DNA of 55,508 nt, the filler included, from Bipalium vagum (taxonomy: Eukaryota): the NCBI GenBank assembly GCA_037834085.1. It is 3 parts of 3 records of this genome, joined end to end, with 100 filler letters (N's around TTAATTAATTAA, not from the genome) between each part and the next. Parts side by side here need not be neighbours in the genome. Positions count along the whole stretch, not along the records: positions 1 to 17,780 come from JBBMKC010051548.1; 2 more parts are not named here. One strand, given 5' to 3'. Shown here piece after piece: positions 73 through 34,162 of this stretch. Position 1 is the stretch's first letter, and every line of letters begins with the position of its first letter. The translations under genes and the position numbers were made by a program. The notes under the pieces are model-generated. The model saw only the letters and a program-made list of their open reading frames with translations. It did not search any database and was not told the DNA's origin.

Positions 73-1899
73 TATATGTATTCGTAATATTTTTTCCTAA
101 TAAAGATATTTATGAGGATTCCTTGTAAATCTGAAAATCGAGATTTGTTGTTTGATGAATGAAAATGTATCAAATTCTTAATCTAAAACAGAATATTTTT
201 GGCCTCAAGAGATAACTGTCATTTTTCTATATAATTATTATCAAGCAATATGACTTGATCGTGTCGCTCCGCTCATTTTGGTCTCCTTACTCAGGAAATT
301 ATTGCGTAACTGGACTAGTTTTTATTGTAGCGATTGGCAGTTACGACATAGTACAGTATGTCGCGCTGATCCCACCAGGTGCAGAGTAAGACGTTCTTCC
401 CGTGAATGTTCGATTTTGCCGGCTTATTGGAGCTTCCCGATGATCTTTATATAAAAACTATAATATATTTATAGAAAGCTGATAATATCTAGAAAATAAT
501 AGCAGTTCATTAAAAAATATATTGATTTACCGAAATAACATAAAACTTTAATAAAAACGTGGAAAATAACTTGTGCACCTGATACTTAATATCTTAATAT
601 GCAAACAAATCAGGATTGGTGAGAAAAACTCAACTTCAAGAAGAATTCCTTTTTATGAGAAGCAGAAGCAATCATGTTTAAACCTTTCTAAAGAAAGGGT
701 TGATGGAAAGATATCATGCACTACTGTTCCAGGTTAGAGCAAACGTATATTATTACCCAAAATTTGATTATTGTTTTTATTAATATTAAATATTGAATTA
801 AAATAAATTTAATTCATTGTTTAAATGAATTTTTAAATCAAATTTTTTACTTACTACAATTAATGATGTTGAAGGTTTTTGAGATAAGAGATTAAATATT
901 TTTTGTTTCTTTCCATTTTTAAAATATTTTTTAAAAATAAATATAAATATAAAAAATAAAAAAATTAATCAGAAACTAAGTTATATTTTACCATAATTTT
1001 ATTATAATTCTTTTCAGTTAAAATATTGAATTAAAATAAATCTAATTCATTGATTTCAGTTAAAATTATTATTTTTTAACTTATTTAATATTTTTAAAAT
1101 TAAATGATCCACATTATCATGCCCAGCTTTTAGAACTGATAAATCTACTTTCTTAAAGTTATAAATTGTTCAATAGGATTTTTTGGTTTCAAATCGTTAT
1201 TTATCTTCGTAATTAAATATATTACATTTTTAATTTGTATAAATAGGAGCAAATGTTATTTCTTCATCATAATATACAATTTTTCTTTCATTTTTAAAAT
1301 ATAAATTCTGAAACATTTTTAATATTTTACATCACAGAATATAATAGGATACAATTTTTTCATCTAATTTTCAATTTCTTTCACTTTTGTTTCACTTTTA
1401 AATTCTTAAAAAGTTAAATTTCATAAATTTTTATGTTATGTTTATAATATTTAAATTCAAAAAGTAATTTTCATTAAAATAAAATAATATTCAATGTTCC
1501 CTACATTCCTCCAAAATTTCAGTTTTAATTTCAATTCAGTTAATTCCTCTAATTCTTTTCATATATTTTCAAAATCAACATTATCAAAATAAATCTTTTT
1601 CACTTATATTATTATTTGAAGAGTTAAAAAATAAAGGTCTCATAAAAGTATATCTTTTCAACGAAAATATCTGACAATTTTCTTATTTTTCCTTTTAACA
1701 CATCTCACACAATATTTTGGATAATAATATTTATAGAACTGATGTTTTACCCGATTTATCCAAATTGGAGTGTTCGTGCGTTGCTCTAACCTAGGACAGT
1801 ATTTCATGATATCTTTCCATCGACTCTTTCTTTTGAAAGGTTTGAACATGATCGTTTCTGCTTCTCTAAAAAGGGATTCTTTTTCTTGAAACTGATTTC

Positions 1900-4488
1900 T
1901 GCCCATGTGAATAATTTTCTATTATCCCACACAGAATGAGGTCCGAATATAAACCAGAGCTACGACCTTCATGACGAGGGCAATCACTCAGCTCAAACTT
2001 TTCCCTATTGCCTCGAAGCTCAAAGAAAAAGTCTTTCAAATTGTCAGCTAAAGAACAGGCGGTACTGGAGTTGACAGAATCAGTTGGATTAATTATAAAG
2101 CAATTCTCTTTTGTGAAGTCGAGGATAAGCATAAGTTGGTGAAAGTACGGAGGCCGGAATAAAATGAAAATTATTGAGGCATTTGTGATGCTACTCAGAT
2201 CAATAAAAGACATGATATAATCAGTGCAACCGTCCACAATTGCTGTAAACGCAGTGCTATCAAAAAGAATATACCTGTCAGCAAGTTTCAGGTTTTCGAA
2301 AAAGACTTGGCTAGAGGAATTGTATAAGAGAAAATTGGTGTTTCTCGTCTTCGTCACAGCAGGCGAAACGGAATATGATGACGCCCTCCCATTATCTTTT
2401 TTATTATTAGCCTGGATTTTTGTATCTTTATTATGATTATTAATATAATTATAATATTTTTATTTAAAATATTAAAATTATTAAGATTATAATGGTTATT
2501 TTTGCTCTTATAATAATTCGAGGAGTGATCATTATCTACGACTGTGTTCTGGTAGCGCACACAAGTATTGTGATACGCTACGGTCAAAACGTCCGACGTC
2601 ACGGAATATTTGCAGATGATATTCGTGACAATTTTGAATTTGTTAAAGTCGTTTATGGATTCATTTGAACTAGCTTCAAAAAGAACACAATGAAATGGCT
2701 GAAACGAAATCTTTGGAATGAAATTCCAATTCCAAAATGAAGCAAATCTGTTGCCAAATGCAGCCATCCTTTCCGACAAAAGGTGGTTATACGTGTTAAA
2801 GATGTAACACTTTTTGCTTAAGAGAAAAACGTGGAGAATGTGCCAAAGGTTATCTAGAAGGAAAAGCAAATTACATCTTGAAGGTCTTTGGTGACACAAC
2901 TATTGTCAAGTACAACACTCAGATCACATTCAGCGTCAGTAATCGGAGGCAACAAAAAGTAACAGAGGAAGATGAGATTCAGTACTCGAGAACTTTATAA
3001 ATGAAGGGAATTTCAATATTCAGTGAACAGATATTCCTGAAACCTTCAAGATTTGAAAAGTTTTTATTTTGAAGGTTGAATAAAGAGACTATGTTCTTGA
3101 CGTAGCGAACCAATTCATCTTTGTTGAAAATAAAGGCGTTTTCTGTGCCTAAAAAAGAAATGAAAGTACTATAACCACAAACCAGAGGTCCGCAATCATA
3201 GCCTTTTGTTTGCCGTGGAAGATTTTCGTGAGGTTGTCTATTAATTGGACATCAAGATCGAAAAGAGAATTCAGGTTTCTACGAAGATTTTTGACGAGAG
3301 GCAAACAAACGTGAGACATATAAGCGTAAACAAGGGGATCAGTGAAGTATGAGCACATTGACAGCTTGCAGTAAACAAAGAGAATCCAGTGTTTATTCAT
3401 TTATTAGTGGACAGAACAGAGTGGATGCGGTATATGCATCTTTCTGGATAGTCGGGTTATTGTTTTGGTCCGACTGAGCAATCAGAAGAACAAAGATAGG
3501 GTTCATGTTGAAATGACCTTCACTAAGATGTGAGGAGAGAAAATAATCGATATCTGCGTCGGTGAAAAAACTTTGATCGCCGACCAGAATGGAGGTAGAG
3601 TTGAGTATACTAGTGCATTCTACACCTGTCAAAATAACAGGAATACTTGCAAAGAGACAGGTGTAGGCACATCATGTCAGAATTTCTTCAAAGCCTTCTG
3701 TTTGACATTTCTAGTACGCCTAGAAACTGGAGTATAGGGCGTAGCAACAGTAGGCTTAGGAGTTATTTCAATTGCATCCGATTTGACATCGCTATTCGAG
3801 TTGTTGGTATTCTTAGCATGACCATTGATGGAGGAAATACAAGAAGAACAGAGAAATCCAGACAGATTTGCGATAGAAATTTCAGTCAGAGACTCGTTGA
3901 CAATTAGGTGTCGGGGAAGTTCAGAACGTGACGTATCAAGCTTTTCAGAATTTGAGCAGTCAGATGCGGCTGGATTCAAGAACAGAAGCTTTCCATCGAC
4001 GCATTTCAGTTTAGTTTTCACAAGAAATTCCGGTAAGCTATGAGATTTAGTCAGTCTATCAACGATGTTATTAATTTCCTTAGCCTTTTTCTCTAAATTC
4101 GGATTGAAAACCGTCTTGGAAAAGTCATTCAAAAACTCTAACAAAAACTTTGAAAAATTTGGTGGCGCTTCAACAAAATCAGGGCCAAAAGAATTGAAAT
4201 CAAAAGTATTAAAATCGGACAAGAGAAAATTATCGGAAACAACAGTCGAAGAACGATTATTTAGATCAGAACTCCTTGAATTATTAATACATCTATTGTT
4301 ATGAAAATTAGTGACATTTTTTTATTATTATGATTTGATTTTTTATTAAAATGGGACAATTTAGGAGTCAAATTATTATTATCATTAACAGAGTGAACAC
4401 TAGTTTTATTAAAATTAAAATCAGCGATATTTTTGTTACTTTTTTTATTTTTAACAATCGAATTTTCAAAATATCGCTCAGTGTTCAT
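1900..4488 (-). pseudogene. Frameshifted long ORF with Ulp1/SENP (peptidase C48)-like protease domains, probably transposon-borne
   Basis: Motifs FTDADIDYFL, FCPLIN/NKHWILFVY, YFTDPL and, after a frameshift, Q-KGYDCGPLVCGY give a His-Asp-Cys triad. Two further degenerate similar blocks lie downstream. Confidence 0.7.
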
Positions 4489-5103
4489 TATATACAACTT
4501 GACCTTTTTATATATCAACTTTTTGATTGTGTCTGATTTTTTGTGTATATATCTTGTGTATGATGACCTTGTCTCTAATCCTGATCCTTATCGTCAAAAA
4601 AATAACTTTTTTATCTATTTTCTGAGAATTGAGGCTCACCACCCTTTTTAGAATTTTTCTGTTTATATTCCACCCACATTGCTGGCCTTTTTCTGAACAC
4701 CCCTCTCTACCATCTCTTCTTATATTTCAAATCTCAATCCCTATTAATCTGTCCTCTCATTGCACCCATAGCTTTAAAATTTTATCTTTTAGCATTTTGA
4801 AGTTGCCACATATGGGGAGCCTCAATCATAATTGTATTTATTTAATATTTGTTTATGTAATGCAAAATTGGAAAGTCCCGAACCAAGTCTGGTAAGGTTA
4901 ATCACGTAATTAATTTAAAATTTCTATTTACTAATCTGAAAAAATGATTCAATTTGGTGGCTTGGTTTCAAAGATATGGGACTTTCAATTTCCCACCCTT
5001 TAATTTAATTTATCTAAATAACTCTAAGTTTCTACTTAGTTATTTATTATCATTGTAGTATTTTTATGATATATGTTTTATTAATTTTAATAAATATGTT
5101 TCT

Positions 5104-6100
5104 ATGCCTTCAACCACTTTACTCCCCTGGCCATCCTCCACTTCCGCTTGTCTTCCGGCCTTACTTCCGCCTTCCCATTCAGGCTACGAATTCATACTCT
5201 TGACCCACTTTCTTATGGCTCATATCTATTTTCCGGATACCATGGGAAGCATATTCACACCTTCTGTACCAGCAGATTCCTTTCGCTGCCTCGGTGAGAG
5301 CTACCAAGTGCCAGCTCCTTGCTGAGGTAGCACTGAAAGACTATATTGTGGCGTATAATCCGAGCTTCTGGAAAACCTTCCAAAACTCGGACTATGTCCC
5401 TCTAGAAGCCCATTCTCCCTCTCCGAGTGCTCCCATTGGCTCCCCACTGACTGGCAACCGGCAACGCTGGGGTAACCGCCGTCGTGGACGTGGTCGAAGC
5501 CCGGGAAAAAAGCAAACTTTACCTTCGCTTCCGGCCCCCTCTGATACTGGAGATTTGATCATTTCGTGTACGAATGGCCCACATACGAGCCGTACGGTTT
5601 CTGTTAGGTGCCCGCTTGGGGAGAAACACAGCGCATACTGAGGAATTTATCCCAACCTAGTTCCCCAGTTACTACGGCTACGCCGTCTTTTCCAGTTTTT
5701 GTTGGAGTTGAATGTCAAACGGATCTCTGGAGTGCCCCTGAGCGCGTGGACCAAGCGTTACAGACTGATCCTTGGATATCTGCTCCGGCCTCTAACTTGA
5801 TCAAAAGTGTAGCTAGTACTTCCACTTCAAAATTGATGGTTTCCCAAAGGGCACCCCAAATTATCACTCCGAAGCGCACTGGCCCTCTCCACAGCCTCTT
5901 CAGAAATCCTTCAGCTGTCTCCCAACCATCTCCGCCTCTCTACACTGGACCGCCGCCAACTATTACCTAATCTGACACCGATATCTCATTCTCCCCGCTT
6001 GAAGGACCCTTCCATTCAACGAATGAAGCCTTGTCCCTGAAAACCTGCACCATCCGACTTTCTCAATCTGTTCCCCGTTGCTCTGAAATGCCCTGACATC
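5104..6100 (+). pseudogene. GC-rich Pro/Ser/Thr-rich ORF broken by frameshifts, likely retroelement ORF1/gag-like remnant
   Basis: Three overlapping ORFs in successive frames, much higher GC than flanks, basic patch RRRGRGRSPGKK; no recognisable domain. Confidence 0.35.
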
Positions 6101-6107
6101 CTCTCCA

Positions 6108-7136
6108 CTTTAACATAGAAGCAGCTTTAACCATATATGTAGCTGCGTCGGATATTAGAAAATTAAAATCATCAACATTAATATCAATTTCAATAAAAAT
6201 ACTTATAATTATTCTTACAATAATTCCAGAATAAATCGAGCTTTTCAATATAATCTTTTCATATAAATAATGCTCAAATGGATTTTCCAATAGCCAATAA
6301 TTACATTACAAAATTTAATACCTTTTACTTCAGCTTCATCTATTATTAAAAATATTTTCTTTTGGGTAAATTTAAATTTTAAGCTCATTTTCTTAGACCG
6401 ATAAATATCAATAATATGCAATCTAACTGAAGATTCTGATCAGCTTGATTGCCCCAAAAACATAAATAAATTTATAATTGCTGGATGTCTCGTTTTTTTA
6501 AAGGAATATCGGCAGCTAGAAACGATTCAGCAATTTTCATGGATAGAGATGATGTAGGAAAATTGATCTCTTGTTGAATTTTTGGACTTTTCATATCTTG
6601 TGCCAATTTCGAATGTTTTGACGTATTTAAATGTTGCACTACTGATGATTTTCGATCATAGGAAATATACGAAACACATATTTGACAGAATAATAATTTC
6701 GTTTAATATAAATTTGAATCTTTTGTACTTTTTTTGATATCTTAACCATTTTATTGGGATTGTGAGGATTAAAAAGTTTTAAATAATTTTAATTAGTTTA
6801 AATATTTATTATTTAAACTAATTAATTAGTTTGTTTGAATAATTGTTATATTAAAATAAATAATTTTGAAATGACTCTTGGTAACTTATCAACTGATATA
6901 AATGTAACTAACAGGGATAATAAGACAAATTTTAAATATTTATCATTGCTAAGTTAATGACAGACATTAAATAATAAATGATAAATAATTTAATAATAAA
7001 ACCGAAAAAACCTAAACATTTAAAATAATTTTACATTGAAAATTGTAAATTAATTAAAAAATCAAAAATGCGTATATAAATGCATTTTTGGTAAATTTGG
7101 GAATAATATGCATTTATATGCAAATTGGTTGCCCTA
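6108..7136 (-). mobile_element. hAT (CGGBP1/DUF659-like) transposon 5' remnant
   Basis: Decayed ORF from ATG 6749 with CQIC...QHLNTSKH Zn finger, FLAADIPLKK, IIDEAE and LISDAATYMVKAA; terminus TAGGGCAACCAATTTGCATATAAATGC at 7136. Confidence 0.75.
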
Positions 7137-9214: not shown

Positions 9215-9506
9215 TCAGGTCGAAGGAACGTGATCAGAGACTTGAGCTCGCACGAGAGACGAAGACAAAAGTAACGAAGCGTTCTCCAACGCCTTTATCG
9301 GCCTCTCTTTGTAACATAACAGAAACCCCTGGACCTGGGCCGGGGATACACGTCTCGGACCGATTTTGTGAACAAATTGCGACACAACACTCTCGTCACA
9401 GTTCGGATAAAATTGTCGAAACATTTTTTCCAATTGACTTTCTGAACATAATGTCAATTCAAACGACAAATCAACTCGGCCGGGTCGCACAAGAGCTGGA
9501 TCCAAT
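9215..9506 (-). CDS. BCS1L: BCS1 exon 3 (terminal)
   Basis: tttcAG acceptor; LDPALVRPGRVD (SRH/Arg finger) ... SPAQVQGFLL ... stop at 9215. Exons sum to 907+118+292 = 1317 nt, in frame. Confidence 0.92.
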
Positions 9507-9557
9507 CTGAAATGACTGACCAATGAAAAAACTTGTTCCCGCGAAACAAGACAATAC

Positions 9558-9675
9558 CTCTCCGGATAATTTGTTGTCATGAAAAGAATACGACCTTCAG
9601 TTGACGAAACTCCGTCCAAAGCATTCAACAAACCACTCAATGTTAACGGTGACATTCCTTGGTAAGCAGGATTTT
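9558..9675 (-). CDS. BCS1L: BCS1 exon 2
   Basis: catAG acceptor with phase-1 join giving KNPAYQGMSPLTLSGLLNALDGVSSTEGRILFMTTNYPER; donor AG|gtattg. Confidence 0.93.
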
Positions 9676-9806
9676 CTATGGGTCACAATTTTAAAAAATA
9701 ATTTATAATAAATAATAAAAATATAACTAAACAATAATAATAAAATAATCGCTATTCAGTCTTTAATAATTATCAATAATTAATGGATATTAATAAATAA
9801 TGAAAC

Positions 9807-9810
<4 letters not shown>

Positions 9811-9843
<33 letters not shown>
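9811..9843. repeat. (ATT)n microsatellite in BCS1 intron 1
   Basis: Directly visible run of about 11 ATT units. Confidence 0.9.
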
Positions 9844-9844
<1 letters not shown>

Positions 9845-9948
9845 GTTCGTAATCTTTAATAACAATGATACATAATAATCTTTATTAATAATGAAATAAA
9901 TTTTTTAATAAAAATAATTGATAAATTTAATATTATTAACTTGTAATA

Positions 9949-10481
9949 CAGGATTTAACACGTCATTTAGCTTCGTTAACATTACATTTCGTTATTAAAA
10001 AATTTGATTTAATTTTTATAACATAAGATTTTTCTAACAAAAAACACCAATATTTTTAATTAAATTCAACATAATCAATTTCCATCAATAATTGTCAGCT
10101 TCTGCATACATTTAGGGATAAAAGAAAACACATTGCGATAAAATCCAGCACAGTCTTCATTCGTTTTGAGAAGAGACGAATGGTCAATAACCATTAAAAG
10201 TTGCTCCTCATTTTGTGGCCTTGATTGTCTTACTTTTTGTTTCCATTTTGAAAACATATTTTCGATAGGATTTTAAAAAGGCGAATAAGGTGGAAGGAAT
10301 AATAGTTAAATATTTTCCAAATCGAATTTATCCCTAATTACTTGTGATTTATGGAAGGGAACATTGTCCATAATCACTAGGGCTTTAGAAATGTTCTGTG
10401 ATTTTTTAATATGCCCAACTAAATTATCGATTATGAAAACAAATTATAAATTTAACATACTATATGACGTGTTAACCCCTG
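9949..10481 (-). mobile_element. Internally deleted IS630/Tc1-like (DD34E) element in BCS1 intron 1
   Basis: TIRs CAGGATTTAACACGTCATTTAG / CTATATGACGTGTTAACCCCTG with TA on both sides; MDNVPFHKS...LFLPPYSPF*NPIENMFSKWK, 34 residues between D and E. Confidence 0.85.
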
Positions 10482-11168
10482 TAATAATTCATAATATTAA
10501 TCGATGATGTTTAATAATTATATGTTAATTATTAATAAAAATCAATAAAACTAAAAGTTAATAATAAAAGATAATTGAAATTAATAATACAAATGGGTAA
10601 CAGAACAAAAAATCAATACCATTCAATAATACAAGTAATATAAAGATATTAATAATAACTCTATAATGATCAATAATATTATCCAGTAAAGTAATATTAA
10701 TTGATAAAATTAATTTATAATAATCAAGAATTATTCCATAATCATTAATAATATTAAATCGATAATTACACATTTATAATATTAATTAATAATACAATTA
10801 AATAATAAGCAATAGAATTAATCGAAATAAATAAATTTTAATTAATATTTAATTAATCAATATTAATAGGAAAGATTAATCACAAAAAATATTTAATGAT
10901 AAAATTAAAAATGATTAAATAAACAACAGAAATAATTGATAATAATCAAAATAATAAATCTTAATAATCGATAAAATTATATAAGTAATATTTTTCAACA
11001 ATATAATGAAAAAATAATCAATAAAAATAAAAATAATCCATCGTAATATTAATAAATAACATTTAAATAGATTAATAGAAAATAATTAACCAATTAAAAG
11101 GAAAATTCTGTGTTTAAATTTCGTCGTCGTCGTCAATCTCTCCCACTCGGAAAAAAGTAGAAACTAAC

Positions 11169-12075
11169 TCGACTGGGAGCCGTCAGATCTACTGACGAAG
11201 GCTGCGTCGACGTCCTCGAGCAGAATGAGGGACTGGAGCGGTGCGTGGGCAAGCAAGTGGTCGAGGCGGTCGCCGGACATGCCGTACTCACCGAGACTAA
11301 GAACGCAGACGCTGTGCTGTAGGGCACCGGCAAGGGCTGCGATGAAGGACGACTTTCCGCAGCCAGGCGGGCCGTGGAGCAGGTAGCCGCGACGGTAAGG
11401 AACGCCTCGTGCGCGGTACCAATCTTGTTGGCTGATGAATTCACGCACGTCGTCAACCAGTTGCTGGGCGATACCATCGTCAAGGACAACGCTCGACAAA
11501 GGTCGTGGAGTGCGTGGATATCCGAAGGGGCGCCACTCCGCCCCGAATGCTTTATAGACTATCGTCCAACCGCTCTCCTTGCGCAGCGCTTCCCCCTTGG
11601 CAAGCTCGAGCACGCCGTGGAAGAACTGGCGGTCCCTGCCAATTGTTGTCAATGTTACGCTTTCAAATGGTGTTCCTGTGCCACTCAATGATCCCCCAAA
11701 TGATCCCATTGTCGTTGGCTGTGTCCTGGAACGTTCTGCCTTCACCAATCGACTCTGGAAAAGGAAAAAGTGCGCACCCGGGGCCGGGATGAACTCGTAT
11801 TGTGTCTCGATTTTGCCCGCTTCATTGCGGTGGAAAGCTGTCTCGACACTAAGATGGGATGCCGACATTTGACGCGCAAGCCACGGTGAGACCCACTGGT
11901 AGCTCTTGTCGGTACTCGGGATCTCAAGCGTCATCGTGAGGTTGCGTCGGGCCAGTGTCTGCAATAGCTGCACACCTTTGCGGAGAACTGCTGTTCCCAC
12001 TGCCAAACCGAACAGGCCGGATCCAGCTTGGAAGTAGTCATTAGTCAACAATGATTGAATTGCGGTTTCGATTGT
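11169..12075 (-). CDS. BCS1L: Mitochondrial chaperone BCS1 (AAA ATPase, complex III Rieske insertion), coding exon 1
   Basis: Reads TIETAIQSLLTNDYFQAGSGLFGLAVGTAVLRKG (BCS1 N-terminal TM segment), then EWRPFGYPRTPRPLSSVVLD, Walker A GYLLHGPPGCGKSS and Walker B LILLEDVDAAF. Preceded by acceptor tttttAG; ends at donor A|gttagt (phase 1). No in-frame ATG upstream. Confidence 0.95.
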
Positions 12076-12699
12076 CTAAAAATAATGAGAAATCCGGTTA
12101 CGGTTCGTTTGGATAAGAATAAATGATTTGAATTTGTTATCTCAATTTTGAATATTTAAACAAAGTCATTAAGTTTTTTCATAATTAATGATAAACTTTG
12201 TTAATTAATTAAAATATTTCTAAAAATATTTAAAGGTTATTTATTTATTTATATTTATATTTATATATATTAATAATCTTATATTTTTAAACCAGGTTGC
12301 AAAAATAAATGCTTATAAAATTAATAAGATGATAAATAAAACTTAATTAACAGATGACTATTAAGATTCAGTATTAATTTATCAACTCAAACACTACAAA
12401 CCTATAAATTCAAAATAATTAGATATTTTTTAAACTTGAAGAAATTTTAAAATAAGGTTATTATTAAAGTTTGAAAATTAAATATTCCTTAACTCATTGA
12501 AAGATCTACGTTCGCTTTCAGAATACATGTTCGTTGTGGAAGTAGCAATGAACACTAGAATACCGGATAACAATTTTAGACTACCCTCTAAAAATATTTA
12601 AATTAGCAAAAGGTGAGCGAAAAATTAGGACAGTACCTAATACAAGTTTTTGAGGACTGTGTATTAAATACTGTAGAAAATCCAAAAAAATAAAAACGG

Positions 12700-13476: not shown

Positions 13477-14150
13477 TTAGGGTGTCCCATATGCTATGTT
13501 ACTTTATCACCATCATCATTTATGGATTGTTTTTTGACACTTATTGTTTTGCTTAGCAAATATGGTAAACATTTCAAGGCTAATTATTTAGCGGATTACG
13601 AATATCACATTGATTTTATTTCAATATATCAATAATTGTGGTAACTTTGTTTGATAACATGAATAAAAGATGGCGCTTAGAGTAGTAATAAGGTTCGTCT
13701 GGAAAGAAGGTTTAAGCGCGCAAGCAACTGTAGCCAAAATCTGTAAAGTTGAAGATGAAGGGACTATCACCAGAATGACTGTGTTGAGATGATTCAGAAA
13801 ATTCAACGAAGTGGACATCAGCTTGGAAGATCGACCGAAATTTGGAAGGCCTTCCACTGTGGATTCGGAATCGTGGCGGCAGCTGCAGAATGGAGTTCAC
13901 TAAAAAGCACTCAGAGATTTTCAGCCAAGCTGGGAGCATCAGAATCCACTGTTCACAGAAAGTTGCAAGAGCTTGGGATGGTAACGGATGCTGTAGAATA
14001 GTGCCCCATGAGCTGGCGCCCGCACAAGCACAACAAAAAGTGGATGTCTGCCGGGAGCTGAGCAAAACTACCTTCGATTTGCGCCAAATTTGACCCATAG
14101 TAACTAGTGGTGAAAAATGGATATTTTTCAGAAATCCTAATACCGGTGAC
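13477..14150 (+). mobile_element. mariner 5' half
   Basis: TIR TTAGGGTGTCCCAT; LRVVIRFVW, SLEDRPKFGRP, IVPHEL, IVTSGEKWIFF with stops and frameshifts. Confidence 0.85.
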
Positions 14151-16176
14151 CTACCAGAAATGGGTATATAAATTCAGCTCTGGAAACAGGAGAGATATCC
14201 AAAAGAGAAACTTGAAAAACTATTTATAATTTTCTAGCAATTGAGAAAATTTTTATTTATTTGAAAATTCAGTTTATTCAAAAATAAATTTGAATAAAAT
14301 AAATATAAATAGAATAACTGAATTTAAAATAAAATTAATTAAAATAAAGTAATGTGTTTAGAGGTATAAGGTTGTGATTAAACTCTATCGTGATGAGTCT
14401 ATGTAAACTCCCTTTTTTACTCACTAGTAAAGCATTAAATTATGATAAAGACATTTGAAAACTGTGCAAGGTGAAACATGACCCCAACCAGGTTCTAAAA
14501 AATCTACGGGTATTCCAATAGACGCGGAAATCTAAATGAGGTCAAATGTATGTAATATCTTTTTATTTTGTCTTTGTTAGCTGCGATATCAACAAAATCA
14601 GTATATTTGGATATATTTTGAATGTCTTTTTAAGACAATAATACTTAAATTAATTTTCTATTCTTAATAAATTAATATTGTGCCAATAAGTATTATTTTA
14701 AAATAGTTATATAGAAAATTAAATTCATTAAAACTTTTAATTAGTCACAATGTAATAATTTAAAAATTAGAAATCAGTTTAAATACTCACAGCCTTAGTT
14801 CATTTAAGTCGTTTAATTTGCATTTCATCATTTGAGTATCATATCGAGTTGATTTCACTTCAATTTGGATTTTTCGTTTTTCCATTATTCATTATTGATT
14901 TGGCGGAGGTAATTAATTTGTTTTAGAGATTTTAGAAGTCATTGTGTTATATTGAAATAAGCAATTGTGAAGTTCATCAGGTATATATCAAGACATCATG
15001 TGACCTTAATGATAACTCCTGATATTATATTGATTTGATCATTGTAGTTTTATTATTTATAGATTGAATTAATCCTTCAACTGCTGAATTTATTATTTTC
15101 GTTTTGAACTCAAACATTAGATTTTGAAGTGAGATAAATTACGCGTTTGGTTAACATTCATAATGCTAACTATTATCAATAACTATACTTAAGTAATTTA
15201 ACTAAAGGTTACATATATGAGTGTAATGATATAATAAAACGATAAAGAATTATTATACATGAGTAAAATGTAAACGTTATTGAACCTTTTAGGTATCTTA
15301 TATTAAATCAAGAGATAAGAAAGTATGCCTTTTTAGTTATAATTCTAAATAAGGAAGAGATTAATATGTAACCATTGTGCTTAACAAGAATTTTGATTTA
15401 AAAGTATAGTATATGTTAATATGCAAACAATTTTTGATGATTGCTGTATAATTTAGTTGACAAATATTGATTACGAGACTTGAGGAAGTGATGAATACTG
15501 ACAAAAATCAAGAGTAGGAAATTTTAGTAAACTCGTTTTTTGCAAGCAGGATCTATTTAATTCTTTAAAATCTTCTGATCATCCAGCTAAAGCACGACAA
15601 TTCCAGATGCCTGTAGATAGAAATCAACGTTATCATGTTAATTCTAGAACAGAGATATATTTTGAGTTGAAGCTCTACGAACTATACTTATCTGAGAATA
15701 TTTCCATTAGGCAGTTTGAAGTCAATGACTCTACAGAGTCAGTAATAGACTCTTATATCCTCATTAATAAAATCCGAGGTATCAGAAAAAGATATAAAGA
15801 TTTTTGTAAGTTTCATTTGTAAGAGTAAAACTACAAATAATAATTGTTTATTAAAGAACTCCTTTTAAAAAAGACTACCTACCAAAAATGGTCTATATTT
15901 AATGAATAACAATTTTCAATATTTAAGGATGGTTAAAGAAGTATTGGTCACCTTAGCAGAAATAAATAAGTAATTAATAAAAATATAATAATGTCATTAG
16001 AAAACAATAATACTGTATAATAATTAGGAGGTCCAAAGGTTAAAATTCATAGTTTTCCCCAATATCCTCTTATTAAGGTAACATGGTGATAACGATTGAC
16101 CTCAACCTCTTAGGTACTTTGTGTAAGGTTGTCCGCTAATGGATATGACATATTTTGAATAAATTATTTCTCATAT

Positions 16177-16770
16177 ATCAGGTAACGAACTAAGCTTTTT
16201 CGTTTTTTCAGTTGTTAAAATTTGTTAGCGCCTGGAATTCTCATTTATCTACCGATTAAAATTTTCTTTGTTTTAGTTTGCTGCTTAAACATGTGAGTTT
16301 CAAATTTACTGTATAATTAATGTTATTAACCATTTTCCTCAGGAATAGGTTCTCCAAAAGTTTGCTGGACAAATTACAAATTCGAGCAATTATTTATTAA
16401 GAATGTATAAATAATACAAGCACAAATAAAAGTTTCAAAACTTAACGAGGTGCTTGGTTAAGGAACAATGCAACTGTGAACAGTGCAAAATTGGTTCAAA
16501 AAATTAAATAGTGGCGATTTTTCATTGGAAGACAAAGAGAGGTCTGGAAGGCCAAAAGAGCTGAAGGATTGTCAAATTAAGAACCTTCTTGAACAAATTA
16601 GTGCTAAACAAATCGTTTCTGAGTTAAACATAAGCGATACAGCCATAAGAAACAGACTGAAAGCTTCATAATTCATTTGTAAACTAGACAAATGGGCTCC
16701 TCAGCAACTAGCTGGAAAAAACAAATTAGATCGCATTGAAATTTCTTCAAGGCTTCTCGAAAGAAACTGA
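16177..16770 (+). mobile_element. mariner 5' half
   Basis: VQNWFKKLNSGDFSLEDKERSGRP HTH region and KLDKWAPQQL (WVPHEL-like). Confidence 0.85.
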
Positions 16771-16774
16771 AATG

Positions 16775-17160
16775 ATGGAGAACAGTTCTAACCTACATTC
16801 GTCAATACAAATGACCTTGTTCCAAAAAGAAGAAAGTAATTTGCCATGGTCTCTGCACCAATTTAAGCAATTCTTTGTATGTATCTCATTTAATAGTAGT
16901 TTCATCGCTGCAATCTATCAAAACAATTTTAAGATTACACTTCCAGTAGCTACTGAAGAAGTTTGACATGCTTTCAAATGAATCAAAAGTTGATGTTCTG
17001 TTTTCTTGGGATTATTCTTCGAATAAAAAATTAGCAATCTTTCAGATCTCTGCGTATTTGTTTAATGTTTTTTATGTTTTTTAAACTTGTGCTAAATACG
17101 TTCATCTTTCAACTTTTCAGTAGCTAGTTTTTTCATATTCATCAATAACCGACCCATATT
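16775..17160 (-). mobile_element. Tc1-like transposase remnant
   Basis: IAAMKLLLNEIHTKNCLNWCRDH resembles Tc1 'KKPLL...RLxWAxxH'. Confidence 0.4.
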
Positions 17161-18486: not shown

Positions 18487-18603
18487 ATGTTTAAATTGCT
18501 TTTATTTGGTTCTGCAGCGATGTCCTCTTTTTATACGATATGTCAGCATTCAAGTAATTTTAAAGGATATACATTGTTTCGTCTGGGAAGAGCTGGTTTT
18601 ACC
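18487..18603 (+). CDS. ADCK1: ADCK1 (aarF/ABC1/UbiB atypical kinase) exon 1
   Basis: ATG, MFKLLLFGSAAMSSFY...LFRLGRAGFT (resembles ADCK1 VRVGRAVAT), donor gtaaaa, 45-nt intron ending tttAG. Confidence 0.75.
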
Positions 18604-18648
18604 GTAAAAGATTTAAAACAATTTTCCTAAAGAATTCTTGAAATTTAG

Positions 18649-18732
18649 GTTTCATCAATAACTTTAAATTACAAATTGTTTTATTTGAGGAATAAGCCAG
18701 AGGATGAAAATTATGATTTTTCTTTATCAGAA
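18649..18732 (+). CDS. ADCK1: ADCK1 exon 2
   Basis: VSSITLNYKLFYLRNKPEDENYDFSLSE between AG and gtttgc; followed by a 45-nt phase-0 intron. Confidence 0.75.
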
Positions 18733-18777
18733 GTTTGCAAAATGTTTACTATTACAGTATTTTTAATATTGATAAAG

Positions 18778-18981
18778 ATTCACAAAGCGTCAGCTGAAAA
18801 GTTGCTAAACCTTTGCATCGCCAACGGCGGGTGTTACATAAAATTAGGTCAGCATTTGGGGAGTCTCACGTACCTACTTCCCGAAGAGTATGTCAGCACA
18901 CTGAAAGTACTTCACGACAGCGTTCCAAATGAATTGTTCGAAAATATCCATCGGATAATTGAAGAAGAACTCGAAGCTGAA
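18778..18981 (+). CDS. ADCK1: ADCK1 exon 3
   Basis: IHKASAEKLLNLCIANGGCYIKLGQHLGSLTYLLPEEYVSTLKVLHD contains the UbiB KxGQ motif and closely resembles ADCK1; donor gtattt. Confidence 0.92.
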
Positions 18982-20399
18982 GTATTTTTTCCTTGCTAAT
19001 TTTAATTAAATTATAAATAAAATAATTTTTAATTAAAATCAAACGTTAATCAATTAATAAAATTCTCAAAGGACCCAGTAATATTTTAATGAGTTCAGTT
19101 TAAAAATTTAACATTAGAATCAATAATTATTTATCTGAATTTCGTTGTTTGTCAATTGATAATTAATTCAATATATATTTTTTATTTGTCGATTTTCAAT
19201 ATTGAATTAAGTTGGAAATATTTGAAAATCAAAATCAAAGTTCAATTTGTTATCCATCGATTTATTGGAAACAAGTCCAATCTCTAATCGATTTCATTTT
19301 TTGTAAATCTTCAGAAAATTTACATGTTCAATTTCTTCAATCTCAGTCTTTGATTCCCTCTCTTCGATAATTTTCTTTCCATCTTATTGGAGTCTATCTA
19401 TCGATTGTGAAACATTTTTCGAAGTCGATATCGGTTGTTCTGAACGCTCTTAAAATGGTTTTCTTGATAGATCGAGTGAGATGATTGGAAGTCGTTGAAT
19501 ATACGGTGGGTTGTCTGTGTATCCCAAAAACTGGTTTTCAGCACAAAAAAACGAGACGTTGACATAATTCTGGTCTTTTTTTGTGACGGATATCACAGGT
19601 TATCACGTTTATTTATTTTTCAGCTTATCTCCTGAAAAATAGTAGAAGGGAGAACCAGGTTTTGCGGACATGATCCCAAAATCTGTTTTCACTATATTTT
19701 CCATTTTTATTTCCTCTTTCCCAAAGTCTGGTTTTCCTTTCTACATAAAAATCCTTATTTTTTTTACTTTTTACATAAAGTACTAAAAGTACCATTTTTT
19801 CATTAATTATTATGGAACATATTATTAAGCCAACAATGGATTTATTTATTTTAATTGGATTTTCTAACATTAAATATACACATACAGACATAATATTTTT
19901 ATCAGTTTGTTTGTCAAATTGATTAACTTGTATTTGTCATAATCTAACCAAAGGATATTCTCTAGGAAAGCAGTTATAAAGAGAAAAATCTATTCTATTG
20001 TTAATAGATTTATTAAAAATACCAATAGATTGTTTTCTACTATATGTTCCTCTTATTCAATGAATGAGATAAAAAACCATTTAAATATGAAGTAAAACTG
20101 ATTTTAAAATCATTAGAAAAATCAACAAAATCTACTTGATTTTTTTTCTTGAGTTAATAAATTAAATTTTTCGATATTAAATGCTAAGTTATAAAATCTA
20201 AATTCAAGATGACATATTCAAAACAATCTGGATATTTATTTATTAATTCTAATAATCTTATATTTTTAAGTTTCTTCTGTAAATAATTATGGATATTCTG
20301 AACATATCCTTATATGTTCTATATAGCCATAACAATAATATATACTAAAATCATACATTTTTTTGAAAAAAAGTAGAAAAAAATATAAAAGTAAAAAAG

Positions 20400-23300
20400 C
20401 CAAGTTTTCTCTTTAAAAATGAATTCAAGATATTATGGTATTTTTCAAAAAGACTGCAAAACACCTACAGGTTTAATATCTCAAAAAATCTAAGTCATAT
20501 AGATAAAATAAATAACGTTCAACCATTAAAAACAGTGTGATCTCTGTGAAGATATTTTTAAAACAGTTGCTGCAAGAATTACACATGAAAAATATTGTGA
20601 TAGAAATCAAAATAACTTAAAATTTCTATATATATAATACTATGATAATATTAATCCAGAAATTTATCAAAATAATTTTAATAATGCAAGTAATATTACC
20701 TTAAAAGATAGATTTCACAATTATTTAATTTCTAGTTTTGAATATGAAATCAATTTTGTTTAAATAAATTTCTTCCTAAAATTAAAGAAGCAATGTTTTA
20801 TCATGTTCAAGATGGAAGACTTTGTAATCCATTTAAATTCTCTAAACTTAAATATTAAACTTATTCATCTAACTGATTCTGAATTTTTAACTTTAAGAAC
20901 TTCATGTGCTGCAGGAATAATATTGATAATAAATAATATTAGGTCATCAAAAGAAAAATTTTATATTAAATTGAGAAGAAATGGAAAATACATGGAAGAG
21001 ATTAAAAATGTCTAGTTGGGTTATTGATAGTTTTTCTATTTTAACTCTATCAATTGATAACGTTAAAGTTTTAAGAGGTAGATCATATGTTGAATTTCCT
21101 TTTAATCTCATTCAATTATAAATATTCAGAACTAAGTTAAAAAATGTTTTATATGCAGTATAATTGTTTTTTCACACATCAAATTCCACATCATAAAGAA
21201 AGAGTAAAATGGTATAAATATTATATTTTATTTTGAATTTTAAACAGATAAAAGGAAAATTAATTAAACTCCGGGTTTTAACTCTCACATAAAAAAATTA
21301 TATTTAAAAATAATAATAATAAATAATAAAATTAAAAAAAATTGGGACCGGGTCTGGGAGTCTCCACAAAGAATATGAATATAAATTTAATTATAATAAT
21401 TAAGATGTCAATGAAAAAAAATATTGGAAAGTATGAAAAAGAAAATGAATTAAGACTAAATTTATGCTTGATTGATTGCATTAATCAAAATTAAATTAAG
21501 AAAATCATGGAGAACATATAAGTTATATTTCTTCACAATATAATAACAATGGAGCACTGTCTGTATTATTTTATGAAGGATATAGACTTAGTCTCAGTGA
21601 ATGTGAGTTATTAATTTTGTGAAAAATGTTTGTTAATAAATATTAATAGATCTGCTTATGAAAAAAATTATAACTCGAATATTAAATAAACCAACAAAAT
21701 ATATCTTTCTTAAACCAGGGTAAAATTTAAATTTTATGAACTATAAATATAAATTAAGATTATCTTTGTGATATCTTTATCTTTGTGTATACATACATAT
21801 GTTGTAAGGCTAACAAATCCTTAGACTAAATTAGAAATATTGAGTATATTTAAATAAAATTTTGCACATCAAATAATAATCATGTATTCATGAAATATAT
21901 GATTTGTTTAAATATTCTAATTTTTGTTTCCACTAGATATAATAAATTCAAAAATATTTTTGAAAATGTAGAATTCCGAAGTGTGATCCGGTTTTTACTA
22001 CTGAAGAGATCTACTAAACAGTAAATTATTAATGAGCTGAAAGGGGTATACTGTGAAGAAGCCTCATGTGAGGCAACCATCTATAACTGGATCCGGGATT
22101 TTTCATCTGGCCGTATAAAAATTTATAAAGCATCCAAAAGTGGAAGGCCTGCTGAAATTAAAGAAGAAAATTGAAAGAAATTGTAAAAAATACTCAAGCT
22201 CAGCTGTCTGAGAGGCTTAATGTATGCAAAAGAATCACCCAGTTGCTTCTATGCCAAAATTGGAATTGCAGGTTCGTGCCGAAATTTATAACAGCCGAGA
22301 TGATGGCTAGACGAAAAATGACCTGTGAAAGGAATCTTCGTCTTCTGGATGTTGGACCAAATTTTTATGGAATATTATAACTACAGACGAGAAGTCATTG
22401 AGTTTCTTCATGCCTTGCTTTAATAGAGAGTCAAAGGTTTTACAAAATGAAAAGCCATCTAAAGTCTTGCGTCTTGGAATTTCGCATCATAAATGTGCCA
22501 TGTTGACCGTCTTTTGGGAATCAATATTTTACTGAAGAAATCATAAATTCGATTACAGTAATCTTTTACTTGAAACCCGAATTGTCCGATGCAAGCCTCA
22601 GAAAGGGATCTTTTTTTGCTCCATGATAACGCTCCTATTCACAAATCAAAGAAGTCCCAAAAAACATTAGCAAAAGCTAGACTTGTGCACATGGACAATC
22701 CCCTTACAGTTAAGGTCTGGCACCAAGAGATTTTTGGTTGTTCAACCATCTGAAGAAACATGCGAGGACAAAAATTTGTTTCAAAGGATGATATGACGGA
22801 TAATGTGACAAAATTCAAATTCCTTATGGAGAAGGATCAAAATTTCATTTAAATGGGCTTTACTGGAATGGTCAACTGGTGGAATATCTGCGTCGATGTA
22901 AACAGCGGTTATGTTGAGACCTATACATGTATATGTATTGTTAATAAAAATTTTGTTCAGTTATCTTCATTATTTCTAAGAGTCTAAGTACTTTTTAGCC
23001 TTATCATATAGAATGTTTTAATGAACCAATAAATGAAAAAAAGTTAAAAGCAACTTATAGAAATATTATCAAATGAATTTCAAAAAAATAATCTTCCTCA
23101 ATTTAATAAGTGTAATTAGTAATCACAAATATATTTAATTATGTAAAAAATATAAATCAAAATTTAATATATAAATACACATACTTTTATTAAATTTCAA
23201 AGGTTAAAAAGTATATCTGATAAAGTTAATGATCATGATCATTATAATGAAAGTTATAGTTGATCTGCTCATTCAAATGTAATCTAATTGCTAGTTTTTC

Positions 23301-23814
23301 AAATTTTATTCTAATATTTTTTCTAAATGGTTCTGGATATGATTTTCATTTGATAATAAAAAATTTAGCAGGTGAGATACAATTAGATGAATAGAGTTCA
23401 AATCGTAATGATGCATTTGATTTAATTCCACAAACAGAGAAAAATAAATGTCATTTAGTTATATGAAAACTTTTAAATTTTCAGATTCCTTAAAATTTCT
23501 TTTGTGTTCTTTAGATGGAAAAGCATTACATGAAAAATATAAAAAATATTTAAAAGAATTTTGTTATGCAATATCAAATAATTCTACATTTGTAAATGAC
23601 TTTAATATATTAGAAAACGGAATTTATCCATATGATTATTTTACTGATTTTGAAAAATGTGTCATATATATATATAAACAGAATTATTACCAAAAGAAGT
23701 ATTTTATTTTAAATAAATATAATATTTCTGATGAAGAATATGAATGATATAAAACTGTGTATACAAACTTTTGTAAAAATCATTGAGAATATAAAATTTT
23801 ATATCTTAAACAAG
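20400..23814 (+). mobile_element. Polinton/Maverick-type protein-primed DNA polymerase B remnant (split by a mariner)
   Basis: LRGRSYVEFP, INIQN, DHDHY...SAHS.CNL, NGSGYDFHLII, FSDSLKFL..SLD, GIYPYDY, ISDEEYE and LYLKQ appear in canonical order, with many stops. Confidence 0.8.
21800..23008 (+). mobile_element. Near full-length decayed mariner inserted in the PolB remnant
   Basis: Imperfect TIRs (TAAGGCTAACAAATCCTTAGACT / AGTCTAAGTACTTTTTAGCCTTA); RSVIRFLLL, RFVPKF, ITTDE, LLHDNAPIH, PPYS.GLAPRDFWLF. Confidence 0.9.
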
Positions 23815-24438
23815 TGTAGGAATCATAAATAAAGAAGAATAGAGAATAGATATTGTAGTCTACATCAACAATATCAATGTGTAATTTTAGTTTCTCAACA
23901 TTTTATGAAGTGACATTGTTTTAGGATAAGTAATAATGGTAGTTTTTTGTATGAAAACTGATTTTCATTGTATAAAAAAAATATATAAAATTTATTAAAT
24001 AATTTAAATAAAATAAAAATTAAATTAAAGGATTTAACAAAATAACAATAAAACCTGGAGCATATCCACTTGCACTCGAGTTGGGAGGAGGAGTTAGGCA
24101 GATCGTCTGGAACCACTAAGAGCATTGGTGGAGATCTAAATTAAAACTACCCTCAACATTCATATTTAAAAATGGTATATAATATATAAGTAGGAATCAA
24201 CGGATTATTAATAATAAATAATAATTACAACATATGTTCCCAAAGAGGAATGATATGAGAATAATAAAAAATAATGGTTTTATATAACAATAACAAATTA
24301 ATAAAAATAAGCTTAATAAATAAATAAAATAGAATATTCATAATAATATATTACGATAAACGTCATTCATAAAACGTATGTGACAATCGTCATTAACAAA
24401 AGCACACATGAGAAGAAAATAGTATAAAAATCATAAAA

Positions 24439-24495
24439 AAATACTACAATTAGTTTATCATAACTAAAATACTACAATTAGTTTAATATAACTAT
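24439..24495. repeat. Two-copy tandem duplication (about 27 bp)
   Basis: aaatactacaattagtttatcataact followed by aaatactacaattagtttaatataact. Confidence 0.8.
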
Positions 24496-27250: not shown

Positions 27251-28263
27251 CAGGGTCTTCCAAAAGAAGCTTTACTACTTTTAAAATGTTAAATACTATG
27301 TAGTTTTTGTTTAAATAAATTATTATTTAACATTATTTTAGCTAAACATTTGAAAATTAAATATAGATCATTATAATATGCAACAATTGGCGGAAATTTT
27401 CAAAATATTTTTTCAAAGCGGTAGTTCAATTTCAGTAACCGTTAAAAAATTAAATGCAAAATTTGGGAAAACCAAATTTCCATCAAAACCAACAATTTAC
27501 AGCCTGGTTAATGCTTTTGAAGCATTTGGCTCGGTAGCAGGTACACCAAAATCTGACGACCTGGATCTGCGCGTATACCTGAAAATATTGCAAGTACACA
27601 AGAAAGCATTGAAGACAATAAATGCACCTCAATCAGTCATGGAGCACAGGAATTAAACCTCTCAAAATCCAGTTTGTCGCGGATAATGCATGAAGATTTG
27701 CATATGAAAGCCTATAAGCTTATCATAGTTCAGAAGCTTAAAGAATCAGACCATCAAAGTCGCTTGAATTATTTTAATTGGTTGTTAGAAAGATCAATTG
27801 CGAATCCTCATTTTGGGAGAAAAATCATTATGACTGATAAAAGTCATTTTCACTTGAGTAAAGGTGTTTTAATAAACAAAATTGTCGAATTTAAAAAACA
27901 AAGCAACCGTATGTTTTGAAGGCAGAAGCATTACATTCGCAAAAGTTATTGTATTGTGTGGAATATAGGCAAGATGTGTAATAGGTCCATAATTCTTCGA
28001 AAATGTTGCATGTAAAACAGTTACAGTAACAGGAGAGAGAGATATCGACACGTGATAGAAACATTCCTTATGCCTTATCTGAATGATTTTAATGTGGAGA
28101 ATATTTAATTTCAGCAAGATAGTACCACATTCCATACAAATAGGATTAATTTTTGTAATATCTGTGTTTAAATAAAGGTATAAATAAAGTTACTTGGGTT
28201 TTTAATTTTTATGTACGGAGAAATAGCGACTTAAAGTAGTAAATCTTTTTTTGATAGACCCTG
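27251..28263 (+). mobile_element. Tc1/mariner superfamily element (DUF4817/Tc3-like, probably DD41D type), decayed
   Basis: TIRs CAGGGTCTTCCAAAAGAAGCTTTACTACTTT / AAAGTAGTAAATCTTTTTTTGATAGACCCTG with TA flanks; PTIYSLVNAFEAFGSV, DLHMKAYK, IMTDKSHFHL, FQQD. Confidence 0.88.
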
Positions 28264-33747: not shown

Positions 33748-33855
33748 CCGTGTAAAGTGTTTTCTGAAATATCACCTATTCCCATTGGTACTGCGTCATT
33801 GGCTCAAGTTCATTATGGAAGGTTGAGAGGCTCGAATTTAGAAGTTGCTATTAAA
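33748..33855 (+). CDS. ADCK1: ADCK1 exon 4
   Basis: ttgcAG acceptor; PIGTASLAQVH (A-rich loop) ... EVAIK (catalytic Lys); donor gtagga. Confidence 0.92.
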
Positions 33856-33946
33856 GTAGGAAATTACTTATCTTTCAGGGATCATAAAATTACAAAAATC
33901 AATCTTTCTCTCTATCTCATTCAATTATAGTTTTTCTTTTCTCCAG

Positions 33947-34162
33947 GTTCAACATAGAGAAGTGAAAGATCATTCTACGATTGATATTATGTGTATGGAT
34001 TTTCTTTTTTCATTGATTAGCGAAATATTTCCCCAAATGAATTTGAAATGGTTGGCTGAGGAAACACGACAAAATCTACCAAAAGAATTAAACTTTTTAA
34101 TGGAAGGAAAAAATGCAGAAAGTCTCAGGGATAGGTTGTCGAAAAAATTTTCTTTTCTTGTA
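33947..34162 (+). CDS. ADCK1: ADCK1 exon 5 (gene continues; later exons not found in window)
   Basis: ctccAG acceptor; VQHREVKDHSTIDI...WLAEETRQNLPKELNFLMEGKNAE; donor gtaagc. Confidence 0.92.

What the first reader, a model, noticed from the sequence alone, without database searches (positions are those of the whole stretch)
12040..12110. BCS1 has no genomic start codon: candidate for an initiator AUG donated by a spliced leader
Seen: the BCS1 frame runs back to a clean acceptor (ttattttttAG|ACA ATC GAA ACC GCA ATT CAA TCA TTG TTG ACT AAT GAC TAC). The acceptor TAG is itself an in-frame stop, and there is no in-frame ATG. Adding exactly one Met gives MTIETAIQSLLTNDYF, which lines up with the usual BCS1 N-terminus (human MPLSDFILALKDNPYF). 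The first internal ATG lies past the TM anchor. A possible 26-nt micro-intron (gtaacc...ag) also does not lead to an ATG. Known: flatworm spliced leaders end in AUG, which can serve as the initiator. Inference: an essential mitochondrial gene may depend on trans-splicing for its start codon.
Basis: partly seen in the sequence, partly recalled or inferred. Interest (0 to 1): 0.72.

Follow-up and report, generated by a model that had tools for sequence, protein, structure and literature searches.

The report
Flatworm BCS1 lacking its own start
An intact mitochondrial assembly gene (BCS1) in a flatworm-like animal begins at a splice site with no start codon of its own, so its first methionine is likely supplied by a spliced-leader RNA, a mechanism already known in flatworms.

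Summary
BCS1 (minus strand, three exons, 438 codons, motifs intact) opens directly after a strong T-rich TAG acceptor at 12076 with no ATG. The conserved Asn is codon 12 here and residue 13 in 155 of 184 homologues, so one Met is missing. A contig of DNA run X1 matches the site exactly. The protein groups with parasitic flatworms (100/100; four signatures found in 0 of 167 other homologues). The closest relative, P0233, has Gln (possibly CAG) where Met belongs, after AT-rich read-through, suggesting a conserved acceptor. Schistosoma mansoni BCS1 is heavily trans-spliced (6941.5 versus mean 507). Best reading: the leader's terminal AUG is the initiator (about 0.7). No RNA could be tested. The mechanism has been published for flatworms since 2006, so this is a new example, not a new system. 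The scan noted a similar unproven case in another genome (e1-9812923).

The parts
12076..12090 (-). T-rich tract and TAG splice acceptor; the TAG is also an in-frame stop and sits where homologues have the initiator Met
11169..12075 (-). BCS1 first genomic coding exon (907 nt, about 57% GC), starting at family residue 2; BCS1_N domain and first part of AAA domain
11959..12039 (-). Codons 13-39, hydrophobic N-terminal membrane anchor region; lost if translation began at codon 48
   Evidence: hydropathy peak about 1.1 at 19-mers starting 13-21; aligns to mouse Bcs1 residues 9 onward; 28 of 39 residues (9-47) identical to P0233
12039..12041 (-). First ATG after the acceptor, out of frame (36-codon ORF)
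11932..11934 (-). First in-frame ATG, codon 48, past the anchor
9676..11168 (-). Intron 1, 1493 nt, GT-AG, holding a repeated element
   Evidence: high depth 9700-11060
9558..9675 (-). BCS1 exon 2
9507..9557 (-). Intron 2, 51 nt, GT-AG
9215..9506 (-). BCS1 exon 3 with AAA lid and stop codon
12162..12182 (-). Rival cis first exon: ATG plus six codons, weak donor at 12161, 86-nt intron, phase 0
   Evidence: chance-level candidate, no transcript support
12086..12105 (-). CG-containing stretch before the tract; candidate branch-point region (inferred), includes the GT at 12101; weak likeness to the 5' half of the S. mansoni leader
18487..18603 (+). First exon of the divergent neighbour, an ABC1/ADCK1-type kinase, which has its own ATG (control; no same-strand gene seen between it and BCS1)
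   Evidence: exon limits inferred from open frames

Best explanation
This is an intact, flatworm-type BCS1 gene whose coding frame starts right after a splice acceptor with no ATG, and its initiator Met is likely donated by the AUG at the 3' end of a trans-spliced leader. Transcription would start upstream and give an AT-rich outron. The spliceosome would join the capped leader to the acceptor at 12076/12075, which puts the leader's last three bases in frame as codon 1. Two cis introns are then removed, giving a predicted 439-residue Bcs1 with its membrane anchor, which would move the Rieske protein into complex III. Unspliced RNA cannot give the full protein from an AUG: the acceptor TAG closes the frame, the first AUG downstream is out of frame, and codon 48 lies past the anchor. 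Shown: frame, acceptor sequence, missing ATG, intact motifs, phylogenetic signal. Inferred: use of the acceptor, trans rather than cis splicing, an AUG-ending leader in this species, essentiality.
For: Acceptor of a quality reached at 52 of 109,978 positions lies exactly at the codon 1/2 boundary of the family. Thr and Ile after it match residues 2 and 3 (Thr in 75 of 155, Ile in 53 of 155; register 0 scores best). Tree: sister to 16 neodermatan-clade sequences, 100/100; four flatworm signatures present, in 16-17 of 17 flatworm and 0 of 167 other homologues. P0233, sister to the window protein at 100/99, has Gln at family position 1, and its nine residues upstream look like non-coding read-through (top 0.06% of 77,379 BCS1 9-mers). 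Residues 9-47 are as conserved against P0233 (28 of 39) as 48-120 (56 of 73). S. mansoni BCS1 Smp_083120 has SL-trapping mean 6941.5 against a mean of 507 for genes found in both data sets. Reported flatworm leaders end in ATG (PMC12582326 passages; Macrostomum); in E. granulosus 143 of 187 leader-bearing clusters were predicted full length from the leader ATG (PMC3510090 passage).
Against: The evidence is all indirect; neither the leader RNA of this species nor a leader-BCS1 junction was seen. 42 phase-0 ATG..GT pairs lie upstream, among them three ATG|GT sites and the 86-nt option, and this organism's donors are degenerate. Cis start-codon introns are a known class (PMC1626468 passages), and in parasitic flatworms cis and trans splicing often share an acceptor (average 66% of sites). 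Neodermatan BCS1 proteins are two residues longer (Asn 15), so the missing piece need not be one codon. The codon under Gln11 of P0233 was not seen (CAG or CAA). The S. mansoni table gives no site position, and species pairs share on average only 11% of trans-spliced orthogroups. The window branch is long (1.09) and no free-living flatworm of known name was in the tree. Trans-splicing rates in free-living flatworms range from 3.2% to 30% of genes.
Confidence: 0.7

Rival explanations
1. Ordinary cis splicing: an upstream first exon supplies the ATG, either ending exactly in ATG (start-codon intron) or carrying a few extra codons, such as 12182-12162 with an 86-nt intron.
For: ATG|GT donors at 13510, 15372, 16330 and 42 phase-0 candidates in the 6.3 kb upstream; the 86-nt intron is within the window's small-intron range (45, 45, 51, 91 nt) and one modelled donor also begins GTTT. 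Start-codon introns form a peak in many eukaryotes. A conserved acceptor in P0233 fits this equally well.
Against: 42 candidates in 6.3 kb is about two per 300 nt, so one at 86 nt is expected by chance. The 86-nt model puts the Asn at residue 19; only 7 of 184 homologues have it beyond 15. The S. mansoni orthologue is strongly trans-spliced.
Confidence: 0.2
2. No splicing at this site: translation starts at a near-cognate codon, most likely the ATC at codon 2.
For: The ATC has A at -3 and G at +4, a good initiation context; ATT and two TTG follow within ten codons.
Against: It leaves unexplained a strong acceptor exactly at the Met position and the Gln at the same place in P0233. The TTG codons have T at -3.
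Confidence: 0.04
3. The gene lost its ATG recently (one base lost from ATG gives AG) or the assembly is wrong, and this copy is dying or makes a truncated protein from codon 48.
For: A T-rich leader region followed by AG is one base short of ATG (sequence). X1 may be the same sample as the assembly.
Against: X1 contig identical over 10400-12232, and no second copy at 90% likeness over 11216-11970 (depth flat at 15.3). No stop or frameshift in 438 codons. The anchor region is conserved against P0233, which also lacks Met there. The orthogroup is single-copy in S. mansoni, S. mediterranea and H. microstoma.
Confidence: 0.03
4. The 30 bases before the exon are a decayed genomic copy of a spliced leader, left by a reverse-transcribed mRNA, whose terminal ATG became the acceptor now re-used for trans-splicing.
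For: Local alignment of 12105-12080 to the published S. mansoni leader primer scores 22, reached by 63 of 10,990 window tiles and 8 of 2,038 YAG-ending tiles. Exon 1 is long and lacks an intron that P0233 appears to have.
Against: The test was post hoc, with the one leader that looked alike; better scores occur elsewhere in the window. The Macrostomum leader differs from that of S. mansoni. The gene keeps two introns, and the acceptor seems older than the split from P0233.
Confidence: 0.03

Closest known systems
Flatworm spliced-leader trans-splicing with the 3'-terminal AUG as initiator (Cheng et al. 2006, seen only as cited; E. granulosus survey PMC3510090)
   Same: Coding frame begins directly after an acceptor, in phase with a leader ending in AUG; housekeeping gene; flatworm-type host; orthologue trans-spliced in S. 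mansoni.
   Different: The cases in the passages read are schistosomes and tapeworms; this protein falls outside the sampled neodermatans. BCS1 was not named as an SL-AUG-dependent gene in the papers searched, and annotated neodermatan BCS1 proteins carry their own Met. No junction was seen here.
Start-codon (phase 0, codon 1/2) cis introns, Nielsen and Wernersson 2006, PMC1626468
   Same: Same genomic picture at the acceptor: AG followed by codon 2.
   Different: Needs an upstream exon ending in ATG; typical hosts are short, lysine-rich, often ribosomal proteins, which BCS1 is not.
Mitochondrial Bcs1 AAA translocase (mouse 6UKO/6UKP, yeast 6SH3; Pfam PF08740, PF00004, PF25426)
   Same: E 5.6e-99 to mouse Bcs1 over residues 8-297; all three Pfam families above cut-off; ATPase motifs intact.
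   Different: Fast-evolving (branch 1.09), with a 7-residue insert near residue 125 and a divergent first eight residues.
Relict spliced leaders in dinoflagellate retrogenes (PMC5585692, PMC6050394; search listing only)
   Same: A leader-like stretch directly upstream of a coding sequence.
   Different: Likeness is weak and post hoc, the gene has introns, and none of 9 papers listed reported this for flatworms in title or abstract start.

Membership tests
BCS1 mitochondrial AAA translocase | BCS1_N + AAA + BCS1 lid domains | tested here: met
   E 7.4e-33, 6.5e-09, 1.2e-16, each above the Pfam cut-off
BCS1 mitochondrial AAA translocase | Intact Walker A, Walker B, SRH, Arg finger in an open frame | tested here: met
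BCS1 mitochondrial AAA translocase | N-terminal membrane anchor before the Bcs1-specific domain | tested here: met
   hydropathy is modest (about 1.1); domain start near mouse I49 from PMC7994207 passages
SL-AUG-initiated flatworm gene | Host is a flatworm | tested here: met
   tree 100/100 with neodermatans and four signatures absent from 167 others; long branch, species not named
SL-AUG-initiated flatworm gene | Acceptor AG directly before codon 2, in frame with a leader-terminal AUG | tested here: met
SL-AUG-initiated flatworm gene | No usable genomic AUG at the conserved start | tested here: met
SL-AUG-initiated flatworm gene | No upstream cis donor that supplies an AUG | tested here: inconclusive
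   42 phase-0 candidates at chance level
SL-AUG-initiated flatworm gene | Leader joined to position 12075 in mRNA | not testable with these tools
   the only run listed behaves as DNA
SL-AUG-initiated flatworm gene | Species has an SL RNA ending in AUG | not testable with these tools
   no whole genome held; no Rfam match in the window; expected from other flatworms
SL-AUG-initiated flatworm gene | Initiation at the leader AUG in vivo | not testable with these tools
   needs ribosome profiling or N-terminal proteomics
Start-codon cis intron gene | Upstream exon ending in ATG with a GT donor | tested here: inconclusive
   three ATG|GT sites within 6.3 kb, none with transcript support
Downstream gene of an SL-resolved operon | Same-strand gene ending within about 300 bp upstream | tested here: not met
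   no such gene seen; next gene found is the divergent kinase at 18487; 300-bp threshold

The most novel reading that the evidence does not exclude
The 30 bases in front of BCS1 are a fossil spliced leader written back into the genome from a trans-spliced mRNA; its terminal ATG decayed into the AG that now accepts a fresh leader, locking a respiratory-chain assembly gene into obligate trans-splicing across a whole free-living flatworm lineage. That would be dinoflagellate-style leader recycling in an animal and a direct route by which genes become dependent on the leader's AUG.
Probability: 0.04. Interest if true: 0.7.

Novelty: new member of a known kind. Interest (0 to 1): 0.3.

Why it matters
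If right, it is a clean case in which an essential mitochondrial gene cannot be translated without trans-splicing, in a flatworm lineage outside the well-studied parasites, and the dependence seems shared with a relative about 70% identical in protein. It bears on why flatworm leaders keep a terminal AUG, and gives an easy RT-PCR handle to find this species' leader. It also warns annotators: gene finders will start this gene at codon 48 and drop the membrane anchor, or read through the outron as happened for P0233. The mechanism itself is established, which limits the surprise.

Tried and rejected
No RNA holder listed for the exon; the single run X1 runs through both introns without splice joints, so it was read as DNA. 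No whole genome held, so the genome-wide count of ATG-less genes and a search for the SL RNA gene could not be done. A second look at X1 at 80% likeness gave no result, so distant paralogues and a multi-copy match to 12076-12105 remain untested. The tree used a wrong exon join (frameshifted C-terminus) and was discarded; one search replaced it. Metagenome scans found no flatworm BCS1 locus (0 of 360 stretches confirmed; 80 loci kept, best 43% identity, not used). The ADCK1 homologue search found 0 of 16 candidates, so its exon limits rest on open frames and Pfam. Rfam: 0 matches in the window. The 26-nt micro-intron was rejected: stop before any ATG, and shorter than the five modelled introns (45, 45, 51, 91, 1493 nt); a leader joined at the weak AG at 12141 plus that intron would be in frame but adds 13 residues. 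The bacterial promoter scan is not applicable. The Atlas search only returned BCS1_N clusters. BCS1 was not found in the supplements searched for E. granulosus or O. felineus; the H. microstoma trans-spliced list was not reached because the file is cut; supplements of PMC12582326 and PMC8629364 could not be read and may list BCS1. Cheng 2006 and Rossi 2014 are not held.

Full report
Observation. The feature is on the minus strand. The frame from 12075 down to 11164 is open and begins with Thr right after TAG at 12078-12076. It matches Pfam BCS1_N and AAA, and a second frame at 9682-9218 matches the BCS1 lid. Homology-guided joins give exons 12075-11169, 9675-9558 and 9506-9215, with GT-AG introns of 1493 and 51 nt, 438 codons and one stop. 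Walker A, Walker B, SRH and the Arg finger are intact. The first ATG after the acceptor is out of frame (12041); the first in-frame ATG is codon 48, past the hydrophobic anchor and about where the Bcs1-specific domain starts in mouse (I49; PMC7994207 passages; alignment).

How much is missing. The Asn of the N-x-(Y/F)-F motif is residue 13 in 102 of 120 homologues from the first search and in 155 of 184 after the second; 12 have it at 15, 7 beyond 15, 5 at 11, 12 or 14, and 5 lack the motif. Here it is codon 12, so one Met gives the common length. Thr and Ile match family residues 2 and 3 (75 and 53 of 155), and register 0 scores best, but residues 4-6 and 11 of the family are off-consensus: the 11-mer scores -2.3, reached by 51 of 49,263 window 11-mers and below all 155 homologues; the first six residues alone are only in the top 7.5%. 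Neodermatan proteins have the Asn at 15, so one codon is the simplest estimate, not a certainty.

Is the AG real. Run X1, the only run listed, has one contig over 10400-12232 with no differences or gaps; depth is flat at 15.3 over 11216-11970, so no second copy of 90% likeness was laid. X1 may be the source sample. The acceptor has 10 pyrimidines in 12 positions against 6, 7, 7, 6, 12 and 8 for six other acceptors modelled in the window, and 63 AG-free bases upstream; 52 of 109,978 positions are as good. Four of those six acceptors come from the kinase gene, whose exons I inferred from open frames and Pfam, not from homologues (one search found none).

Host. The best hits are tapeworm proteins at 55-57%. 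In a 42-row tree (41 of 184 homologues, chosen by hand) the protein is sister to 16 neodermatan-clade rows with 100/100 and outside them with 98/95, on a long branch. Four sequence signatures are in the window protein, in 16-17 of 17 flatworm homologues and in 0 of 167 others. I read this as a flatworm outside the sampled parasites; no named free-living flatworm was available. Other notes on this genome say flatworm or planarian (unchecked).

A relative. P0233, from a 539-base unnamed contig, is 71% identical over residues 8-129 and sister to the window protein at 100/99 in a 23-row tree. Its conserved Asn is residue 23, so family position 1 falls on Gln11. Gln is the only residue a YAG acceptor can encode (CAG; genetic code). 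The nine residues before it score as non-coding read-through, in the top 0.06% of 77,379 BCS1 9-mers, and its tail also reads like an intron. The codon was not seen. Residues 1-8 share 0 of 8 identities, 9-47 share 28 of 39, 48-120 share 56 of 73: the anchor is under selection, which argues against a start at codon 48 and against a recent loss.

Cis or trans. Sequence alone cannot decide. Upstream on the minus strand lie 6.3 kb with transposon remnants and no same-strand gene that I could find, up to a divergent ABC1/ADCK1-type kinase that has its own ATG at 18487; this is not an operon. These numbers are what chance gives, but the organism's donors are degenerate, so none is excluded. The 26-nt micro-intron meets a stop before any ATG. 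Start-codon introns are a recognised class (PMC1626468 passages). For trans-splicing: reported flatworm leaders end in ATG (PMC12582326 passages and sections 7, 11, 13; PMC7653826 passages; Macrostomum PMC8629364 and PMC10468722 passages), and S. mansoni BCS1 (Smp_083120) has an SL-trapping mean of 6941.5 and 14 filtered RNA-seq reads (PMC5832876 supplement row) against a mean of 507 for genes in both data sets (passage). The table gives no site, target conservation between species averages 11%, and cis and trans splicing often share a site. My estimate, by judgement: leader AUG 0.7, cis exon 0.2, near-cognate start 0.04 (ATC at codon 2 has A at -3 and G at +4), recent loss 0.03, relict leader 0.03.

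Mechanism. Inferred: an AT-rich outron is replaced by the capped leader at 12076/12075; the leader's terminal AUG becomes codon 1; two cis introns are removed; the 439-residue protein keeps its anchor and works as the Bcs1 translocase for the Rieske subunit of complex III (function from PMC7994207 passages).

What is known. Initiation at the flatworm leader AUG was reported by Cheng et al. 2006, which I saw only as cited. In E. granulosus 143 of 187 leader-bearing clusters were predicted full length from the leader ATG, in 4 of 8 listed cDNAs it would be required, and 35 S. japonicum genes are given as using it (PMC3510090 passage). PMC9851317 (abstract) describes a tool for such ORFs. Searches for BCS1 with trans-splicing terms listed no paper naming BCS1 as leader-initiated (listings only). 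So this is a new member of a known kind.

A side lead. The stretch 12105-12080 aligns to the S. mansoni leader printed as a primer in PMC3970683 (passage) with a score reached by 63 of 10,990 window tiles, 8 of 2,038 YAG-ending tiles and 19-26 of 5,000 shuffles. I chose this leader after noticing the likeness, so the real significance is lower; a branch-point or promoter motif is the plainer reading (inference). It is kept as the bold, unlikely case.

Verdict. Observation confirmed; interpretation favoured but unproven; mechanism known; interest 0.3.

Noticed in passing
window 12086-12105 (-): CG-containing stretch just before the acceptor tract with weak, post hoc likeness to the 5' half of the S. 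mansoni spliced leader.
   Followed up: partly
P0233: Short unnamed protein, closest relative of this BCS1; appears to be a read-through of eukaryotic genomic DNA with Gln at the Met position and an intron near codon 130 that the window gene lacks.
   Followed up: partly
window 18487-34162 (+): ABC1/ADCK1-type kinase with 45-nt and 91-nt introns and a gap of about 14.8 kb between modelled exons; no downstream kinase-core exons were found by motif scan in the window.
   Followed up: partly
window 1869-3671 (-): Broken Ulp1/C48-like protease frames (Pfam PF02902 E 0.0026, below cut-off; Atlas lead), probably mobile-element cargo.
   Followed up: partly
window 11169-12075 (-): Exon 1 is GC-rich (GC3 0.62) against 0.42 for the later exons, in a window where most 1-kb tiles are 20-31% GC.
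   Followed up: no
window 13600-14170, 16450-16800, 22162-22377, 27354-27916, 30190-30600, 40146-40580: Decayed Tc1/mariner-like transposase fragments (DUF4817 E 3.2e-09 at 27354; Transposase_1 E 0.043 at 30190; the rest by eye).
   Followed up: no
window 23448-23744 (+): Fragment that resembles a Maverick/Polinton-type DNA polymerase B by recalled motifs; Pfam gave no support.
   Followed up: no
window 5076-6150 and 44501-45050: GC-rich islands with open frames and no Pfam match above cut-off; unexplained.
   Followed up: no
window 9700-11060: BCS1 intron 1 holds multi-copy sequence (contig depth up to about 480 against 15-25 nearby), including a transposase-like remnant near 10100-10400.
   Followed up: no
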